A DNA stretch of 64,000 bases from Pelagomonas calceolata. Its lineage: Eukaryota. The position numbers and the translations under genes are program-made. The notes beneath the pieces are model-generated. The model was not told the origin of the DNA. It searched no databases and saw nothing but the letters and a program-made list of their open reading frames with translations. Below are positions 5,882-11,931 of the stretch, piece after piece. The stretch's first letter is position 1, and each line of letters begins with the position of its first letter. Location: the NCBI GenBank assembly GCA_918797485.1, contig CAKKNE010000003.1:1116001-1180000 (forward strand), read 5' to 3'.

Positions 5882-7525
5882 ATGCGCCTCACCCTCGCAC
5901 TCCTCGCATGCAGCGCGGCCGCGGCGGCGGAGCGCGCCTGCGAGGCGCTGCCGCCTTTAACAACCACGCGAACGAAGCCCTCCGTCGACGGCGGCTCGAA
6001 CCTGTTCATTGGTGGAGCGAGAAAGCCCTGGGACGGCCGCGTCGCCGAGGTGACGAGCCCGGTGTTTGACGAGGCGACCGGCGCGAAGGCGGTCCTGGGC
6101 CGCCTCGCGCAGATGGACGCGACGGCGGCGAGCTGGGCCGCCGACGCGGCGAGCGAGGCCTGGGACCGGGGCCAGGGGCCCTGGCCCCAGGCGTCGCTCA
6201 AGGAACGAGCGGCAGCGATCCGCGCGTTCCTCGACGAGCTCGAAAAAACGAAGCGCGACGAAATCATCGAGGTCCTCATGTGGGAGATCGCCAAGACCAA
6301 GCAGGACGCGACAAAAGAATTTGATAGGACCGTGGCCTTCGCGCGGACCGTCGTAGATCAAGCTTTACAAACCGACGCGACGGAGCAATTTGGAAGATGG
6401 ACCGGCGTCTCGGGCGTAAGGGCACGAGTCCGACGGGGCCCGGTAGGCGTGACGTTGATGCTGGCGCCCTACAATTACCCCTTAAATGAAATGTACGCGA
6501 TGATGATGCCCGCGTTACTGATGGGAAACCCCGTGATTTTGAAATTGCCGGCGATCGGGGCGTTAGCGCACGTTTTGACGATTGACGCCCTGCAGAAATG
6601 TTTACCGAAAGGTGTGGTGAACTTTGTCAGTGGTTCGGGGCGGGAAACGCTACCGAGCGTGATGCAGGGCGGGCTGGTGGACTGCCTCGGGTTCATCGGC
6701 GGGTCGAAGGGCGCCGACGCGCTCATCAAGCAGCACCCGCACCCGCATCGATTGAAGGTGTTTTCCCAGTTGGAGGGGAAGAACCTGGGGATTGTCTTCG
6801 CGGACGCGGACCTGGACGAGGCGGTGCGCCAGATTTTGTTGGGCGCGCTGTCGTACAACGGCCAGCGGTGCACGGCCATCAAGTTGGTGATTGCCGAGAA
6901 AAGTATCGCGCCGGTCTTGGTCGACAAGTTGTCCAAGGCCATCGAAGAGTTACCAAGGGGCCTGCCGTGGGACGCCGGCGTCGAGATCACCCCCCTCCCG
7001 GAGCCGAACAAGCCCCAGTACCTCGCCGAGCTGGTGGAGGACGCGACGAGCCAGGGCGCTCTTATAAAAAACGCGCGGGGCGGCGCGACGAACGGCCAGC
7101 TCTACCACCCCGCTCTGGTGTATCCGGTGACCCCGTCGATGCGCCTCTTCCACGAGGAGCAGTTCGGACCCGTCGTGCCCGTCGCCGAGTTCGAGCAGGT
7201 GAGTGAAGTCATTGACGTCGTCAAGGCGTCGTGGAACGGCCAGCAGGCCGCGGTGTTCACGTCGGACGCGGCCAAGGCGGCGCCGCTCGTCGACGCGCTG
7301 TCTACCATCGTCGGCCGGGTCAACGTGAACATGCAGTGCGCGCGGGGGCCCGACGTCTTCCCCTTCTCGGGGCGACGGTCGTCGGCCATGGGCACGATGT
7401 CGACCACCGAGTCGCTGCGGGCCTTCTCCGTCGAGACGCTCGTCGCCGTGCGCGACGACGACGCGGGGCGGGCGTTCGGCGACGCGCTCTCGACGCGGGC
7501 GAAGTTCCTGCTGCCGACGGCGTAG
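5882..7525 (+). CDS. Aldehyde dehydrogenase family, probably non-phosphorylating NADP-GAPDH (GapN-like), with signal peptide
   Basis: APYNYPLNE, FIGGS, SYNGQRCTAIK (catalytic Cys), EEQFGPV, RGPDVFPFSG; N-terminus MRLTLALLACSAAAA. Confidence 0.85.
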   Translation: MRLTLALLACSAAAAAERACEALPPLTTTRTKPSVDGGSNLFIGGARKPWDGRVAEVTSPVFDEATGAKAVLGRLAQMDATAASWAADAASEAWDRGQGPWPQASLKERAAAIRAFLDELEKTKRDEIIEVLMWEIAKTKQDATKEFDRTVAFARTVVDQALQTDATEQFGRWTGVSGVRARVRRGPVGVTLMLAPYNYPLNEMYAMMMPALLMGNPVILKLPAIGALAHVLTIDALQKCLPKGVVNFVSGSGRETLPSVMQGGLVDCLGFIGGSKGADALIKQHPHPHRLKVFSQLEGKNLGIVFADADLDEAVRQILLGALSYNGQRCTAIKLVIAEKSIAPVLVDKLSKAIEELPRGLPWDAGVEITPLPEPNKPQYLAELVEDATSQGALIKNARGGATNGQLYHPALVYPVTPSMRLFHEEQFGPVVPVAEFEQVSEVIDVVKASWNGQQAAVFTSDAAKAAPLVDALSTIVGRVNVNMQCARGPDVFPFSGRRSSAMGTMSTTESLRAFSVETLVAVRDDDAGRAFGDALSTRAKFLLPTA

Positions 7526-7559
7526 TAGGAGTGGTAACTTCACACAGTTATTAGTTTCC

Positions 7560-7709
7560 CCCTCGACGACGCGCCACAAGGTCTTCGAGTGCGCTCTCAG
7601 CGTCCGCAGCTCTGCGAGCTTCGACAGGTCTATTTTCTCGGCTTCGCGCCGTCGCTTCTCCTCCTCGGCCTTGGCGGCGGCGGCACGGCGTCTTCGCTCC
7701 GCCTCGGCG
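7560..7709 (-). pseudogene. Orphan linker plus WD40-like stub downstream of the kinase-receptor gene (relic or alternative 3' exon)
   Basis: Reads AEAERRRRAAAAKAEEEKRRREAEKIDLSKLAELRTLRAHSKTLW; 7652-7684 is identical to 9480-9512. Confidence 0.5.
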
Positions 7710-10700
7710 CTATTGAATACTACAAGCGCAGCTGTCCGGCGGCGATTCCCATACCTCTCCACCGGTCCCCTGCGGTACGGCCTCCACGCGCGTAAAGTAC
7801 TCATTTGGTTCAGGCCAATGGCACGTATTATCATCAAGCGTAAGGCGCTTGATCTGACTTCCCGCATAATCACCAGGTCCAAGTGTCACCAAGTAGGCTC
7901 CCTTCTCGCCCGCAATGGGCTCAGCCTTCGCAAACGTACCAGACCAGCCTTGGGTCTGCCATGTGCCAGTGCCGTCCGCAAACCACGTCTCATGCGTGCG
8001 CGAGTCACGGCCCCCCGGATGACCCCAATGTTCCACCCAGATTGGTTTCCATTTACCTTGGAAAACATGCGCGGCGCCCCGGCCGCGGGCTGGGCTGCCG
8101 GACAACGTGATCTTGTACACGGCATTGGTCAACCCGCCACCCTGCGCTTCGATTACACCCACCACGCCTGGCACACGCACACGGGTGCTCCGGCCGGCCG
8201 AGCCCCCCGCACCCACCCGACGGAAATGCTCAGCAGGACCCACCGACTCAAAGACAGCGACGCCTTCACCACATGGATACTGCAGGGCAAGATAGCCGAC
8301 GGTGTGGCCCTCGCGCGCGATGCGATCGACGAGCTGCTGTACTGACGCCGCAACGTCGCGAGACCAGTAGAACTTGCCACCTTCCTGGGGCTTGCAGCCT
8401 GGCAGCGGGCTCGGCATCGGTGGAAAGGTGCGTCCCCAATCGTCGCGCCACAGGCCCATGTACTCGAGCGTCGCATTCGCCGTGGGTACGCCGCCGCCGA
8501 CCGCGTCCAACCCGCGGTCCGCCTCGCGCTGCGCCTCGTGGGCCGCCTCATTGGCCTGCCCACGCACGTCCTGGACGGTGCGAAGCGGCGGCACCGGGCG
8601 CAGCTCGAAGCGCTCCCACTGCCACTGGTGCTGCCAATGCCCCATCGCAGGGCTGTCCACGCCGCCCTGGTCGGTGACGCGCAGCCAGCGGTTGGTCGCC
8701 GGATTGTGCAAGCCCACGGTGCCGTCGCGATTATGCCTCACGACGAAGCGCTCCCACTGCCAGCCCTGATTAAACGCTTGGCCCTTGGCCGGTGAGTCGG
8801 CGCCGCCATGGTCGTTGACACGCAGCCAGCGGTCAGTCTTGTAGTTGTAGAGCCCGATCTGCCCGTGACCGACGTTATGCATCTCGAAGCGCTCCCACAT
8901 CCAGCCCTGATTAAACCCGCCAATCGCCGGGCTGTCGGCACCGCCGTGGTCGGTGACGCGCACCCAACGGCCGGTGGCGCGGTTGAAAAGCCCGACGGTC
9001 TGGACCGTCTGCATGTGATGGGCGAACTGGTCCAGCTTTTGCGCGTCTTCCAGCTTCTTCGCGGCCCTGCTGTAGTGCTCCTTGCCGCCGTGGCACGCCT
9101 GCCCGGAGCCGCCGAGCGTGACCTTGTGTATCTGGAGCTCACCGTCTCCACCGATGTGGTTAATTGCGCCTGAGAAACCGGGAATTCTAATGTTCTGGTG
9201 GTTGCGCCCGGTGTGGTGATAACCGTGATCGCCTTTCCTGTGACGACCACCCTCCGAGAGTCGATGACGGTCCTTCTCAAAGCACCAGAATATTTCGCCT
9301 CCGCACTCAATGCCGAAGTACCCCACGCCGCCGTTGCGTTGGAGCTCCGGTAAGAAGCGATCTTGGAAGCAGCGAGCGATCTCATCGTTTGAATGATACT
9401 TCCACCCCAGTGCGGCACTGCCGTGGTTGAGACGTGGTCCACCGGTAAAGCACCCGAGATCCTCTATCGTGCCGCGCTTTCGCTTCTCCTCCTCGGCCTT
9501 GGCGGCGGCGGCGGCTTCGCGCCGCTTTTTCTCCTCGGCGGCCGCTTCAGCGGCGCGAAGCTTCCGCTCTGCCTCGGCGGCCTGTGCTTCGGCGGCGAGA
9601 CGCTGCCGCCTCTCCTCAGCGGCCTTCGCCTCTGCTTCGGCGGCGAGGCGTTGCCGCCTTTCCCTGGCGGCCTCGGCTTCGGCTGCGCGGCGCCGCTGCT
9701 CGGCCTCGGCCTCGTCCTCCTCGTCCTCCTCCTCCTCCTCGACGATCGTGGCGCCACCCGCGAATACCGATGCGCCGGTTGCGAGTGCCCACTCGACGCC
9801 CTGCGCCGCGGGTCGCTTCATCGGATTATGCTCGAGCATCGCGGCGACAAGGCAGCCGAACCTGGCCGACGCGGCGTTGGTCTCGTCGATCAGCGCCTTC
9901 ACGGCCTTGGGGTCGAGCGCGAAAACACCCGTGCTGCGAGCCTCTACAAGCTTTCCCGTGACCGCGCCGCCGAGCATGCACCCCAGGGCCCAGACGTCGT
10001 CCTTGCCGTCGTAGGCCCTGCCCATCGCCTTCTCCGGGGATCGGTACATGTCAGCGCCGACCTTGTTGGCGCCGCCCGCCGAAGAGACCTTGCTCTTGGC
10101 GAGGACGACTTCGGCGAGCCCCAGGTCGATGATTCGCGCGTTTTGGTGCTCGTCGAAGAGCACGTTGTCCGGTTTCAGATCGCGATGTTGCATCCGCAGG
10201 CCATGCATGTACGCGAGCGCCGAAGCGACCTGCCGCGCCCACTGCGAGGTCTGCTCCTCGCGCTCTCGCTGACCGCACGTGAGAGGCCCGCGCTCCCGCT
10301 CGATGCGGGCGAGTAGCGAGCCCCCGGCCAGAAACTCCATGGCAATCGCATAAAACTTGTCCTTCTTGAAGCGAAAGGCTGTGAAGTAGCGGACGATGTT
10401 CGGATGGTTCAGCATCGAGAGCCGTGCCGCCTCTTCCCGTAGCTTTTTGACGCCGACGCCCGTCTTTTTGATCTTCATGAGCTTGACGGCGTACAGGCGA
10501 CCGTCGTCCTTGTTCTTCATCCTGTGCGTCGTGCCGAAGGAGCCCTCGCCCAGGAGCGACGCCTCCTGGTCCGAGTCGTCCGAGTCGTACGGATCGTACA
10601 TGAAGCGCTCCTGCGCCGCGGCTTCGTTCGCGAGCAGTTGCTGGACCCCGGCCTTGAGCTCGTCGAGCGAATCCTGCTGGCGCGCGTTCTGGTCGATGAC

Positions 10701-11435
10701 TGTGCTCACGTCCTCGGCGATCCGGTCCAGCTTGAGCCCGAGCGCCGAGAGCTCCTCGCGCTCGACGGCGCTGCCCTTCGGGATGCCGCACATGATCGCT
10801 GCCCGCTGCGCCGCCGCCTGGTTGTTCGCGTCGACCGTCTGCTGGCCCAGAAGCTGGATCAAGCCCTCGATCTTCTCGAAGCGCTGCGCCTGCAGCGCGA
10901 GCTGTTGGAGGTCCAACGCCGAGCCGAGCTCGTTGCTGAGCTCACAGAGCCGCTTGTCGAGGAGGCCGAAGCGCCGCGCGTCGAGCGAGCCGGAGCAGAG
11001 CTTCGCGAACGCGCCCTTCTTCGAGAATTGTTGAATAAATTTCGCCGCCTCGTCGAGCGCCTGGCCGATGGCCGTCACCGTCCGAGCGACGGCCTCGACC
11101 TGTCCCGTCGGCAGGCCCTGCGTCGCTTTGACGACGTCCTGGAGCTTCTGGGCGATCTCAACTCCGCGGCGCTGCAGCAGCGCCGCGGCCTCCTTGTTGA
11201 AGCGCACCTGGCGCACCGCGAGGCCGAGTTCGGCTAATCCATGCGCAAACGGCATCAGACACATGTTGAGCGGCGGCGGCGCGACCGCTGGGAGTGCCGC
11301 CAGAATTCCAGAGAGCGGTCCGAGGACGTCGGTCTGCGACGCCGTGAGTGTGGCGCCGGCGCCGGCCGCTGCGCCGACGGCCACCGCGGCCTTAGTGGAT
11401 GACGATGCCTTCGTTGCGGGCGCGACCCTCGCCAT
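7710..11435 (-). CDS. 1241-aa multidomain protein: MLKL-like N-terminal helical domain, Ser/Thr kinase, charged linker, WSC-like, beta-trefoil, WSC-like, CaaX
   Basis: VRQVRFNKEAAALLQRR...ALDEAAKFIQQFSKKG..AKL...DARRFGLLDKRL; GEGSFG/AVK/HRDLKPDN/DLG; three repeats of GLxN..T.RWxRVxD.GGxDSPA...WxWERF; ends CACSIQ. Confidence 0.85.
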   Translation of the reverse strand: MARVAPATKASSSTKAAVAVGAAAGAGATLTASQTDVLGPLSGILAALPAVAPPPLNMCLMPFAHGLAELGLAVRQVRFNKEAAALLQRRGVEIAQKLQDVVKATQGLPTGQVEAVARTVTAIGQALDEAAKFIQQFSKKGAFAKLCSGSLDARRFGLLDKRLCELSNELGSALDLQQLALQAQRFEKIEGLIQLLGQQTVDANNQAAAQRAAIMCGIPKGSAVEREELSALGLKLDRIAEDVSTVIDQNARQQDSLDELKAGVQQLLANEAAAQERFMYDPYDSDDSDQEASLLGEGSFGTTHRMKNKDDGRLYAVKLMKIKKTGVGVKKLREEAARLSMLNHPNIVRYFTAFRFKKDKFYAIAMEFLAGGSLLARIERERGPLTCGQREREEQTSQWARQVASALAYMHGLRMQHRDLKPDNVLFDEHQNARIIDLGLAEVVLAKSKVSSAGGANKVGADMYRSPEKAMGRAYDGKDDVWALGCMLGGAVTGKLVEARSTGVFALDPKAVKALIDETNAASARFGCLVAAMLEHNPMKRPAAQGVEWALATGASVFAGGATIVEEEEEDEEDEAEAEQRRRAAEAEAARERRQRLAAEAEAKAAEERRQRLAAEAQAAEAERKLRAAEAAAEEKKRREAAAAAKAEEEKRKRGTIEDLGCFTGGPRLNHGSAALGWKYHSNDEIARCFQDRFLPELQRNGGVGYFGIECGGEIFWCFEKDRHRLSEGGRHRKGDHGYHHTGRNHQNIRIPGFSGAINHIGGDGELQIHKVTLGGSGQACHGGKEHYSRAAKKLEDAQKLDQFAHHMQTVQTVGLFNRATGRWVRVTDHGGADSPAIGGFNQGWMWERFEMHNVGHGQIGLYNYKTDRWLRVNDHGGADSPAKGQAFNQGWQWERFVVRHNRDGTVGLHNPATNRWLRVTDQGGVDSPAMGHWQHQWQWERFELRPVPPLRTVQDVRGQANEAAHEAQREADRGLDAVGGGVPTANATLEYMGLWRDDWGRTFPPMPSPLPGCKPQEGGKFYWSRDVAASVQQLVDRIAREGHTVGYLALQYPCGEGVAVFESVGPAEHFRRVGAGGSAGRSTRVRVPGVVGVIEAQGGGLTNAVYKITLSGSPARGRGAAHVFQGKWKPIWVEHWGHPGGRDSRTHETWFADGTGTWQTQGWSGTFAKAEPIAGEKGAYLVTLGPGDYAGSQIKRLTLDDNTCHWPEPNEYFTRVEAVPQGTGGEVWESPPDSCACSIQ

Positions 11436-11931
11436 GTTGCGGAAAGGGCAGCCCTTAATCTGGTGGGGCACCGCCTGTTGTGCCCAAAATCGCAGCTTAG
11501 GCTGCCGTGATCTCGCAGCGATATTGCAATATGCAGCTACGCTTTGTGCATGCGCTGCATTGGATCTCAGCGCGCTAGTTTTAGTCGCGCTTCAAGGGAA
11601 TCCTGCGGGTGCAAATTGAGGAGGTGTCGGTCCGAGATATGGCTCCGCTTCCCTGAGAAAAAAACCCGAACCCAAGCCCTCACACTCGAGTATCGAGACT
11701 CGAGATCAGCTAGCATTGCAGCTTTCAGCTTGTGTGCAGCCCGGCAAGCAAGCTCAGACCCAGTTGCATCAGCTGCATCCGCACAGCGACGCGCCGCGCA
11801 TCCCTACGACGCCTTTGCTCATTGCTGTGCACGCTGTGCATCGCTGAGAGCAGAGAGCAGAGAGTGAGAGCTGAGAGCTGCATTGCACATCATCATTTTT
11901 GCCGTGGCAGTCCTCTGCGCAAGAGCTAAAG

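What the first reader, a model, noticed from the sequence alone, without database searches (positions are those of the whole stretch)
7710..11435. Candidate algal cell-death/immune receptor: MLKL-like domain + intact kinase + glycan-sensor-like domains + CaaX
Seen: the N-terminal helical domain (about 11280-10900) has the 'V..NK....L..R...L..A..F...FS....F.KL......RF..L...L' pattern. The kinase (about 10560-9780) keeps AVK, HRDLKPDN and DLG. Then come an E/A/R linker, two related domains starting LGCFTGGPRL and YMGLWRDDWGRTF (with GYFGIECGGE / GYLALQYPCGE and GG...IHKV / GGGLTNAVYKI), three ~45-aa Trp-rich repeats between them, and a C-terminal CACSIQ. No clear signal peptide. Known: MLKL/HeLo-like four-helix bundles permeabilise membranes in animal, plant and fungal regulated cell death; animal MLKL has a pseudokinase; WSC and beta-trefoil folds often bind glycans; CaaX ending in Q directs farnesylation. 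Inferred: a self-contained sensor-kinase-executioner on the cytosolic face of a membrane. Loss of most WSC cysteines fits a cytosolic location. I do not recognise this architecture as described in algae.
Basis: partly seen in the sequence, partly recalled or inferred. Interest (0 to 1): 0.88.

Follow-up and report, generated by a model that had tools for sequence, protein, structure and literature searches.

The report
Algal MLKL-like kinase from shuffled cassettes
An expressed gene of a marine pelagophyte alga joins a helical bundle related to the animal cell-death protein MLKL, a kinase with its catalytic motifs, and likely sugar-binding modules that recur almost unchanged in other proteins, so it is likely one member of a mix-and-match immune-receptor family, although cell killing is untested.

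Summary
Residues 56-180 are an MLKL-type four-helix bundle: Pfam E 1e-5 but below cut-off, MLKL the only high-probability fold match, and 9 of 43 relatives above cut-off. A predicted oligomerising helix and a NEK1/GCN2-like kinase with catalytic motifs follow. The repeats form a beta-trefoil with three CBM92-type WExF motifs; the second 'WSC' domain is a cysteine-less WSC relative, the first only indirectly. The bundle sits behind a transmembrane helix in 9 of 14 close relatives, mostly before a TKL kinase. The window's N-terminus is such a receptor's leftover juxtamembrane segment. Its C-terminal modules recur at 86-96% identity in other proteins, two trefoil carriers being TIR fusions. Against killing: 55 residues precede the bundle, and N-terminal tags impair MLKL. 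Bundle plus intact kinase is known (wheat Pm13), and this scan noted similar fusions in other protists. I found no paper on algal or receptor-tethered forms. New variant of a known kind; interest 0.62.

The parts
7710..11435 (-). Whole gene, single ORF, 1241 aa
   Evidence: RNA reads without intron joints
11432..11674 (-). 5' UTR/promoter stretch shared with the non-transmembrane relatives L005, L010 and (62 bp) L009
   Evidence: blastn 80-89%
11331..11435 (-). aa1-35, Ala-rich leader; homologous to the juxtamembrane segment of the transmembrane receptor forms
   Evidence: 89% DNA identity to L001 starts at codon 2, just behind L001's transmembrane helix
11271..11330 (-). aa36-55, extra hydrophobic helix ahead of the bundle, conserved in the family
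   Evidence: alignment; model; hydrophobicity
10896..11270 (-). aa56-180, MLKL-type four-helix bundle
   Evidence: Pfam MLKL_N E 1.1e-5, 25.4 bits against cut-off 27; Foldseek probability 1.00, TM 0.60 to 6zz1; Z 9.8, rmsd 3.0, 119 aligned; dN/dS 0.12-0.27
10611..10895 (-). aa181-275, brace-like helices and coiled coil; part of the predicted self-association surface (aa153-218)
9771..10568 (-). aa290-555, Ser/Thr-type kinase closest to NEK1/GCN2; K318, E335, D419, N424, D437 (DLG), E468, D480, R541 present
   Evidence: 26-30% identical to the TKL kinases of most relatives
9480..9749 (-). aa563-652, acidic run and E/A/R helical linker, ending in copy 1 of the 33-bp repeat (9480-9512)
9108..9473 (-). 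aa655-776, module A1, distant paralogue of A2; WSC-like only indirectly
   Evidence: 96% identical copy in P0021
8496..9104 (-). aa778-980, cassette of helix + beta-trefoil (core 8598-9002, three WERF motifs at aa847, 894, 940) + helix
   Evidence: 80-90% identical cassette in P0017, P0018, P0065
8100..8474 (-). aa988-1112, module A2, cysteine-less WSC-derived domain
   Evidence: hhalign 92%, E 6e-7, 91 columns against 47 viral WSC-type domains; 94% identical copies in P0019, P0020, P0022, P0023, P0024
7761..8078 (-). aa1120-1225, orphan domain X, beta-rich in a low-confidence model
   Evidence: no Pfam, NCBIfam or homologue hit; pLDDT under 50
7713..7730 (-). CACSIQ: CaaX box (CSIQ) with an upstream Cys
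   Evidence: sequence; prenylation inferred
7553..7708 (-). Untranslated remnant behind the stop: second copy of the linker end, with copy 2 of the 33-bp repeat (7652-7684)
   Evidence: no Pfam hit of note

Best explanation
This expressed gene is a recent mosaic from a pelagophyte receptor-kinase family that carries an MLKL-type bundle, and it likely works as a lipid-anchored cytosolic danger or pathogen sensor whose likely glucan-binding modules would cluster the protein and switch on its kinase and bundle. Shown: the domain order, the family, and the reuse of each module in other proteins. Inferred history: a type-I receptor (ectodomain - transmembrane helix - bundle - brace - TKL kinase) lost its ectodomain and helix by gaining a start codon in the juxtamembrane segment, exchanged its kinase for a NEK-like one, and took up a 1.8-kb string of cassettes flanked by a 33-bp repeat. 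Inferred mechanism: (1) the CaaX box is farnesylated and replaces the lost transmembrane anchor; (2) the WExF trefoil and the cysteine-less WSC module bind a glucan that should not be in the cytosol, either a parasite's wall glucan or the cell's own vacuolar storage glucan after membrane damage; (3) multivalent binding brings the brace helices together into a parallel oligomer; (4) the kinases phosphorylate each other; (5) the bundle engages the membrane and causes ion influx or death. Step 3 has model support only; steps 1, 2, 4 and 5 are untested, and step 5 is the weakest.
For: Bundle: Pfam MLKL_N E 1.1e-5; the L005 copy passes the cut-off at 28.2 bits. ESM Atlas top three hits score 0.94-0.92, two of them MLKL_N clusters, and 10 of the ten best hits with a family share family or clan. 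The six best PDB sequence hits of the family profile are MLKL, E 0.06-0.34. The only listed Foldseek rows with probability 0.95 or more are MLKL. 9 of 43 profile hits scanned pass the MLKL_N cut-off and at least 22 of 43 hit it at E 1e-3. Purifying selection: bundle dN/dS 0.12-0.27 in 6 pairs, kinase 0.34 in 1 pair. Oligomer: four copies of aa31-239 score 0.61 against a best control of 0.02, runs agree in at least 59% of contacts, pLDDT at least 71, interface aa153-218. The mark was reached by 21 of 30 solved homodimers and 0 of 23 monomers (eukaryotes 17 of 29, only 1 of 7 without an older solved relative, 0 of 30 monomers); four copies lie outside that calibration and the pass may come from memory. 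Family: 9 of 14 close homologues have a transmembrane helix ahead of the bundle, 10 of 14 a TKL kinase, 7 of 14 DUF285 repeats. Cassettes: A1 96%, trefoil 86-90%, A2 94% identical in otherwise different proteins; the trefoil is fused to TIR domains in two architectures (P0027, P0065). Anchors recur: 7 of 10 representatives with a full A1 or A2 start with MGC, and P0027 ends in CVIS. Three WExF motifs are the glucose-binding signature of CBM92 (PMC11039641, passages). Transcribed over its whole length.
Against: The position matching MLKL residue 1 is aa57, so 55 residues precede the bundle; close relatives have 57 to over 1100 residues ahead of the module and 38 of 44 profile hits have more than about 40. 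N-terminal tags compromise MLKL killing (PMC7305131, PMC4716306, passages), and the extreme N-terminal helix matters for HeLo domains (PMC12881547, passages). The syntenic orthologue L005 has a further 65-aa domain in front. The fold match is not discriminating on its own: Foldseek E 0.19, and five other helical proteins have equal or higher Z (up to 11.3) than MLKL at 9.8; model pLDDT is 60. The window's own Pfam score is below the cut-off. The trefoil did not fold well (pLDDT under 50), CBM92 is not among phmmer hits to E 10, no Arg lies in the 12 residues before each Trp, and the fascin-like actin-binding reading stays open. A2 has no Pfam WSC hit; without the motif used to collect the viral set the match shrinks to 17 columns, probability 4.5% (still 0 of 60 shuffles); A1 does not match directly (13 of 60 shuffles reach its score). 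The kinase has DLG for DFG and Ala for the P+1 Thr. No protein with the same whole architecture was found apart from its own transcript, and the same cassettes also occur in a P-type ATPase fragment, an EF-hand and a DUF3645 protein. The neighbours are housekeeping genes. No infection expression data were examined.
Confidence: 0.45

Rival explanations
1. The bundle and brace are a non-lethal oligomerisation or lipid-docking module that couples receptor clustering to kinase activation. The family signals environmental cues (nutrients, metals, surfaces) and the window's gene is a cytosolic, prenylated offshoot.
For: The bundle is internal in every close relative and in 38 of 44 profile hits. The predicted interface is a coiled coil that suffices for kinase clustering. 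Ectodomains include the iron-related Fea1 domain in 2 of 14. Plant MLKL immunity can be separated from cell death (10.1101/681015, passages).
Against: Rapid module exchange, TIR partners for the same trefoil and DUF285 ectodomains, a repeat reported to move between Aureococcus and its virus (10.1101/2024.10.30.620910, passages), fit conflict biology better than housekeeping signalling. The conserved hydrophobic helices at aa36-76 resemble a membrane-inserting segment. Met58 sits at the MLKL start position in a CAACATG context like the first ATG, so a shorter form is possible, though Met is not kept there in the Aureococcus copies.
Confidence: 0.35
2. The particular combination is a recent, nearly neutral product of ectopic recombination among GC-rich repeats; the parts have functions elsewhere but this fusion has no integrated role.
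For: No second copy of the full architecture was found. Junctions are Gly/Ala-rich, a linker remnant lies behind the stop, and a relative with the same kinase type, P0088, loses its frame after the SP motif. Some metagenome loci have broken frames (L003, L004, L006), which may be assembly errors.
Against: A 3.7-kb frame stays open across at least five junctions, ends in a CaaX box and is expressed. Bundle and kinase show purifying selection. The bundle + NEK-like kinase fusion recurs in P0004/L008 and P0088.
Confidence: 0.15
3. The fusion is an assembly artefact that joins two genes through the 33-bp repeat.
For: Transcript contigs break at the repeat (7655-9512 is one contig in both X1 and X4) and the MMETSP protein P0016 reads from the 3' remnant into the C-terminal half. 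Reads bridging the repeat were not individually shown.
Against: The protein lies on a 5.4-Mb contig. Raw reads give continuous single-strand depth through 9414-9564 (6.6 and 6.5) with no loose ends there. Contig depth is alike in both halves (15.5 against 12-14 in X1; 63 against 62 in X4) and raw-read depth falls towards the 5' end, as expected from one polyA transcript. P0016 is what a circular mis-join through the repeat would give.
Confidence: 0.04

Closest known systems
Wheat/Aegilops Pm13 (MLKL_NTD-brace-kinase fusion protein; PMC10951266, passages read)
   Same: MLKL-type bundle, brace and a kinase with all catalytic residues; immune role shown for Pm13.
   Different: Pm13's kinase is of the plant LRR_8B/DLSV receptor-kinase group and it has no appended sensor modules or CaaX. 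Here the kinase is NEK1/GCN2-like (TKL in relatives), the bundle is not at the N-terminus, and relatives are transmembrane receptors.
Animal MLKL (PDB 6zz1, 6zvo, 4btf, 2msv) and Arabidopsis MLKL1-3 (10.1101/681015, passages read)
   Same: Bundle fold over MLKL residues 0-122, brace helices, kinase fold behind; predicted brace-centred oligomer as in AtMLKL3.
   Different: Those have pseudokinases and an N-terminal bundle, and animal MLKL needs RIPK3. Here the catalytic motifs are kept, 55 residues precede the bundle, and about 690 residues follow the kinase.
Fungal HeLo/HELL proteins, including HELL-kinase forms and all-in-one NLRs (PMC12881547, PMC10197012, passages read)
   Same: Related bundle with a hydrophobic N-terminal helix, combined with variable sensors in one chain.
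   Different: No NACHT/NB-ARC or amyloid motif seen here; sensors are trefoil and WSC-derived cassettes or ectodomains.
Ectocarpus ROCO-LRR and NB-ARC-TPR genes (PMC3341825, abstract and outline read)
   Same: Stramenopile candidate immune receptors diversified by shuffling.
   Different: There each repeat is an exon; here whole domains are exchanged inside an intron-free gene, and the effector is bundle plus kinase.
CBM92 beta-glucan-binding trefoils (PMC11039641, passages read)
   Same: Three repeats, each ending in WExF; CBM92 entries appear among the weak Foldseek trefoil hits.
   Different: CBM92 are secreted, mostly bacterial enzyme appendages; no significant sequence match here and the adjacent Arg was not found.

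Membership tests
MLKL (animal necroptosis executioner) | Four-helix bundle homologous to MLKL_N | tested here: met
   Pfam E 1.1e-5 but 25.4 bits under cut-off 27; L005 copy 28.2; 9 of 43 profile hits above cut-off; fold Z 9.8, rmsd 3.0, 119 aligned
MLKL (animal necroptosis executioner) | Bundle at the free N-terminus | tested here: not met
   MLKL residue 1 aligns with aa57; longer extensions in relatives
MLKL (animal necroptosis executioner) | Brace helices that drive oligomerisation | tested here: inconclusive
   Helices predicted at pLDDT 38-57; tetramer model 0.61 against control 0.02, outside the calibration and possibly from memory
MLKL (animal necroptosis executioner) | C-terminal pseudokinase | tested here: not met
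   VAIK Lys, alphaC Glu, HRD Asp, Asn and DFG Asp all present
MLKL (animal necroptosis executioner) | Membrane permeabilisation and cell death on activation | not testable with these tools
   needs experiment
Pm13-type MLKL_NTD-kinase fusion proteins | Bundle + brace + kinase with catalytic residues | tested here: met
Pm13-type MLKL_NTD-kinase fusion proteins | Kinase of the plant LRR_8B/DLSV receptor-kinase group | tested here: not met
   best PDB hits are NEK1 (E 2e-29), GCN2, CDPK; relatives' kinase hits CTR1 and RIPK1
WSC domain (PF01822) | Pfam WSC match | tested here: not met
   no hit for A1 or A2 at E up to 10
WSC domain (PF01822) | Homology to WSC by profile comparison | tested here: met
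   A2 only: 92%, E 6e-7, 91 columns against 47 viral domains, 0 of 60 shuffles; 10 of 10 viral domains tested hit Pfam WSC, 7 above cut-off. A1 inconclusive (13 of 60 shuffles)
WSC domain (PF01822) | Conserved disulphide cysteines | tested here: not met
   none of the four Cys of the viral reference row aligns with a Cys in A2
CBM92 / fascin-like beta-trefoil | Three repeats each ending in WExF, beta-trefoil fold | tested here: met
   WERF at aa847, 894, 940; Symfoil E 8.7e-8; RicinB_lectin_2 above cut-off in homologue P0025
CBM92 / fascin-like beta-trefoil | Binding-cleft Arg and sequence kinship with CBM92 | tested here: inconclusive
   no Arg in the 12 residues before each Trp; CBM92 only among weak Foldseek rows on a poor model, E 0.015
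CBM92 / fascin-like beta-trefoil | Binding to beta-1,6-glucan | not testable with these tools
   needs glycan array
CaaX-prenylated proteins | C-terminal Cys-a-a-X | tested here: met
   CSIQ then stop; Cys frequency in the protein is 1.4%; no homologue of this tail was found to test conservation

The most novel reading that the evidence does not exclude
Pelagophyte algae carry a combinatorial immune repertoire built by intron-free cassette exchange, in which an MLKL-type membrane-attack bundle is wired directly behind surface receptors (ectodomain - transmembrane helix - bundle - kinase) or, as here, into lipid-anchored cytosolic glucan sensors: single-chain receptor-to-pore devices that compress the necroptosis pathway into one protein in a unicellular alga.
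Probability: 0.3. Interest if true: 0.88.

Novelty: new variant of a known kind. Interest (0 to 1): 0.62.

Why it matters
How abundant marine picoalgae sense viruses and parasites, and whether they run a regulated lytic death programme, is largely open. This family gives a small, directly testable effector (a 125-residue bundle), a set of natural variants that differ only in their sensor, and a receptor layout (bundle directly behind a transmembrane helix) that I did not find described. If the bundle kills or conducts ions, it extends necroptosis-like execution to a unicellular alga. If it does not, it shows that MLKL-type bundles often serve as internal scaffolds, which cautions against reading every MLKL_N hit as a death domain.

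Tried and rejected
No whole genome was available, so paralogues in this genome were not counted; within the window there is no second copy of any module. The AlphaFold model of the C-terminal half was poor (mean pLDDT 48). Foldseek gave no match at E 0.001 in PDB or the viral library and the wide VIA search was filled by the two helices that flank the trefoil, so A1, A2 and X were not tested by fold. ESM Atlas gave no usable hit for A1. A weak PDB profile hit of A2 to hapalindole cyclases (E 0.004) was set aside as partial and unsupported. Viral contigs held no direct relative of the C-terminal half or A2. An HMM of the viral WSC set found A2 homologues mainly through the selecting motif, hence the control without it. 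NCBIfam gave nothing for the window's domains. The idea that the stop codon is a splice acceptor leading into the downstream remnant was rejected: no such joint in the reads. The remnant is not a recognisable LRR (one search had scanned another frame). The tree of the module has weak inner support and a midpoint root, so it does not by itself prove the order of events. Searches of earlier scan notes by sequence, place and shuffling words gave nothing.


Full report
Observation. The window is eukaryotic, about 63% GC; the closest named relatives of the protein are from Aureococcus anophagefferens, so I infer a pelagophyte alga. In two raw polyA runs of one sample, 760 and 417 reads were laid on 7300-11800. 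They cover the gene on one strand, opposite to both neighbours, with no intron joint, and depth falls from about 70 at the 3' end to about 5 over the kinase. Depth rises again over the N-terminal domain with many alternative letters, which shows several close paralogues in the same organism. An exact 33-bp repeat (9480-9512 = 7652-7684) brackets the C-terminal half. Transcript contigs break there and an MMETSP protein is a circular mis-join through it. Single reads bridging the repeat were not shown; continuity rests on unbroken depth, no loose ends in the raw runs, similar contig depth in both halves, and a 5.4-Mb source contig.

N-terminal bundle. Pfam MLKL_N matches aa75-184 at E 1.1e-5, 25.4 bits, below the cut-off of 27; the L005 copy passes at 28.2. 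The ESM Atlas returns basidiomycete, oomycete, mucoromycete and plant clusters at 0.94-0.88, most carrying MLKL_N. A family profile ranks six MLKL chains first in the PDB, weakly (E 0.06-0.34). An AlphaFold model from 22 sequences (mean pLDDT 60, core about 70) has MLKL as its only listed Foldseek matches with probability 0.95 or more (TM 0.60, rmsd 3.5, E 0.19). It aligns end to end with MLKL 0-122 at Z 9.8, rmsd 3.0, 119 residues, 18% identity, but other helical proteins reach Z 11.3. A full HMMER search of 1.84 billion representatives gave 114 hits. Of the 43 longer ones that I scanned, at least 22 hit MLKL_N and 9 pass the cut-off. Together this establishes homology. The bundle is under purifying selection (dN/dS 0.12-0.27 in 6 pairs). 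Four copies of aa31-239 were modelled as an oligomer through aa153-218: score 0.61, best of three controls 0.02, at least 59% contact agreement, pLDDT at least 71. The mark was reached by 21 of 30 solved homodimers and 0 of 23 monomers (eukaryotes 17 of 29, but 1 of 7 without an older relative). Four copies are outside that calibration and the pass may be from memory.

Kinase. Pkinase E 2e-44; best solved relatives NEK1 and GCN2. Lys318, Glu335, Asp419, Asn424, Asp437, Glu468, Asp480 and Arg541 are present. It has DLG for DFG and Ala for the P+1 Thr, so activity is likely but untested. dN/dS against L008 is 0.34.

C-terminal half. The three repeats match designed beta-trefoils (E 8.7e-8), and homologue P0025 passes the RicinB_lectin_2 cut-off. 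Each repeat ends in WERF. WExF is the conserved motif of CBM92 trefoils, whose Trp stacks on glucose and whose Glu binds O3 and O4, with specificity for beta-1,6-glucans and laminarin (PMC11039641, passages). CBM92 is only a weak fold hit on a poor model and the adjacent Arg was not found, so glucan binding is a hypothesis and an actin-binding fascin-like role remains possible. A1 and A2 are paralogues (0 of 1000 shuffles) with the same predicted strand-helix-strands pattern at pLDDT 60-80 in their cores; neither hits Pfam WSC. To test the WSC idea I collected 78 viral loci by one short motif, of which 47 had a WSC-type start about 90 residues upstream; 10 of 10 checked hit Pfam WSC, 7 above cut-off. 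A2 aligns with this set at 92%, E 6e-7, over 91 columns and without the four cysteines. With the selecting motif removed the score drops to 18.7 over 17 columns, still above 60 of 60 shuffles. A1 does not match directly (13 of 60 shuffles). Domain X has no relative or family. The protein ends in CACSIQ.

The family, which changes the reading. A search with aa35-285 found 14 proteins of 56-93% identity among 7994 candidates of 682-2172 aa. In 9 of 14 a transmembrane helix precedes the bundle, 10 of 14 continue into a TKL kinase only 26-30% identical to the window's, 7 of 14 have DUF285 repeats and 2 have Fea1; one is MGC-WD40-bundle-TKL, and only P0004 shares the window's kinase, with a different tail. 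Three Aureococcus models without a called helix may be mis-predicted. Metagenome locus L001 holds an intact 1086-codon frame of DUF285 - transmembrane helix - bundle - TKL, whose kinase resembles CTR1 and RIPK1. Its DNA is 89% identical to the window from codon 2 onward, so the window's first 35 residues are the receptor's juxtamembrane segment. L005 is the syntenic orthologue (89% over 1.5 kb, same SYLF and RidA neighbours) and has a 65-residue insert ahead of the bundle; P0088 has that same N-terminus and the NEK-like kinase at 81%. On a tree of 19 module sequences, transmembrane TKL forms lie on both sides of the midpoint, and the window's bundle is nearest a transmembrane form (94%) rather than the protein that shares its kinase; inner support is weak. 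The C-terminal modules behave as cassettes with sharp ends: A1 96% identical in P0021, the trefoil with its helices 80-90% in P0017, P0018 and P0065, A2 94% in five proteins, all otherwise different. The trefoil is joined to TIR domains in P0027 and P0065. Of 10 representatives with a full A1 or A2, 7 begin with MGC and P0027 ends in CVIS, so membrane anchors recur in three forms. Some cassettes also sit in proteins with no immune flavour. Among 44 profile hits whose module start could be placed, chosen from the 114, none has an upstream transmembrane helix by my threshold and 38 have the module more than about 40 residues from the N-terminus. Their partners include WWE, C2, UEV, SAM, EF-hand and collagen, only 4 of 43 have a kinase, and one is from the chrysophyte Mallomonas. 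The receptor-tethered form therefore looks confined to the close family in what I searched.

Mechanism. Best reading (0.45): a farnesyl-anchored cytosolic sensor in which glucan binding clusters the protein, the brace oligomerises, the kinases activate each other and the bundle acts on the membrane. That ochrophytes store beta-1,3/1,6-glucan in vacuoles, and that CaaX with Q is farnesylated, is recalled knowledge, not from a call. The main objection is the blocked N-terminus: N-terminal tags compromise MLKL killing (PMC7305131 and PMC4716306, passages). Met58, at the MLKL start position, or proteolysis could free it, but neither is shown. Rivals: non-lethal oligomerisation module in a signalling family (0.35), near-neutral chimera (0.15), mis-assembly (0.04).

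Comparison and novelty. Bundle + brace + intact kinase is known from wheat Pm13, within a set of 815 related plant proteins (PMC10951266, passages), and HELL-kinase forms exist in fungi (PMC12881547, passages). Plant MLKLs have pseudokinases (10.1101/681015, passages). Shuffled candidate immune receptors are known in Ectocarpus, by exon shuffling (PMC3341825, abstract and outline). Eight literature searches (listings seen) showed no paper on MLKL-type domains in pelagophytes or behind a transmembrane helix. Term look-ups found no MLKL in a protist transmembrane-kinase survey (PMC10463195) or a protist immunity preprint (10.64898/2026.10.11.758280). In a pelagophyte pangenome preprint the kinase, DUF285 and recombination passages did not mention this family (10.1101/2024.10.30.620910). 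Passages were also read in PMC11218826, PMC10197012 and 10.1101/2021.10.25.465678. The library lacks most subscription papers and I read no supplements, where such domain annotations could be listed. This scan has noted bundle-kinase-sensor fusions in other protists, diatom-like algae and mosses (unchecked notes), so the general theme recurs; the type-I receptor ancestry and the near-identical cassette exchange are what this locus adds. Verdict: observation confirmed, interpretation partly supported, new variant of a known kind, interest 0.62.

Noticed in passing
window:8599-9016: Six RNA reads join the end of trefoil repeat 3 back to the start of repeat 1 through 14 other letters, which read like the junction in P0025; this points to an expressed paralogue with tandem trefoils in the same organism.
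   Followed up: partly
window:52167-52754 (-): A short DUF285-repeat frame (Pfam E 2e-35) with 67-81% DNA identity to the ectodomains of the receptor loci L001, L003 and L006; no bundle or kinase nearby.
   Followed up: partly
L005:1520-1714: A 65-residue insert, SH3/Tudor-like by eye with no Pfam hit, between the start codon and the bundle at the syntenic locus; also in L009 and P0088.
   Followed up: partly
window:11264: In-frame Met58 has the same CAACATG context as the first ATG and falls at the position of MLKL residue 2; several database entries of relatives start there, probably as fragments.
   Followed up: no
P0027, P0065: Trefoil-TIR-CaaX and TIR-coiled-coil-trefoil proteins from marine metagenomes share the window's trefoil cassette.
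   Followed up: no
P0165, P0176, P0181, P0186, P0128: Kinase-free proteins with an internal MLKL_N domain fused to WWE repeats, C2, UEV or SAM domains.
   Followed up: no
L011-L088: 47 of 78 viral loci picked by one short motif encode a four-cysteine WSC subtype, many from giant-virus MAGs.
   Followed up: partly
window:1273-13786: Neighbours are ordinary: a PKA-like kinase, an alpha/beta hydrolase, an aldehyde dehydrogenase (tail to tail, transcripts overlapping near 7451-7752), a RidA-family gene and a FYVE-SYLF gene.
   Followed up: yes
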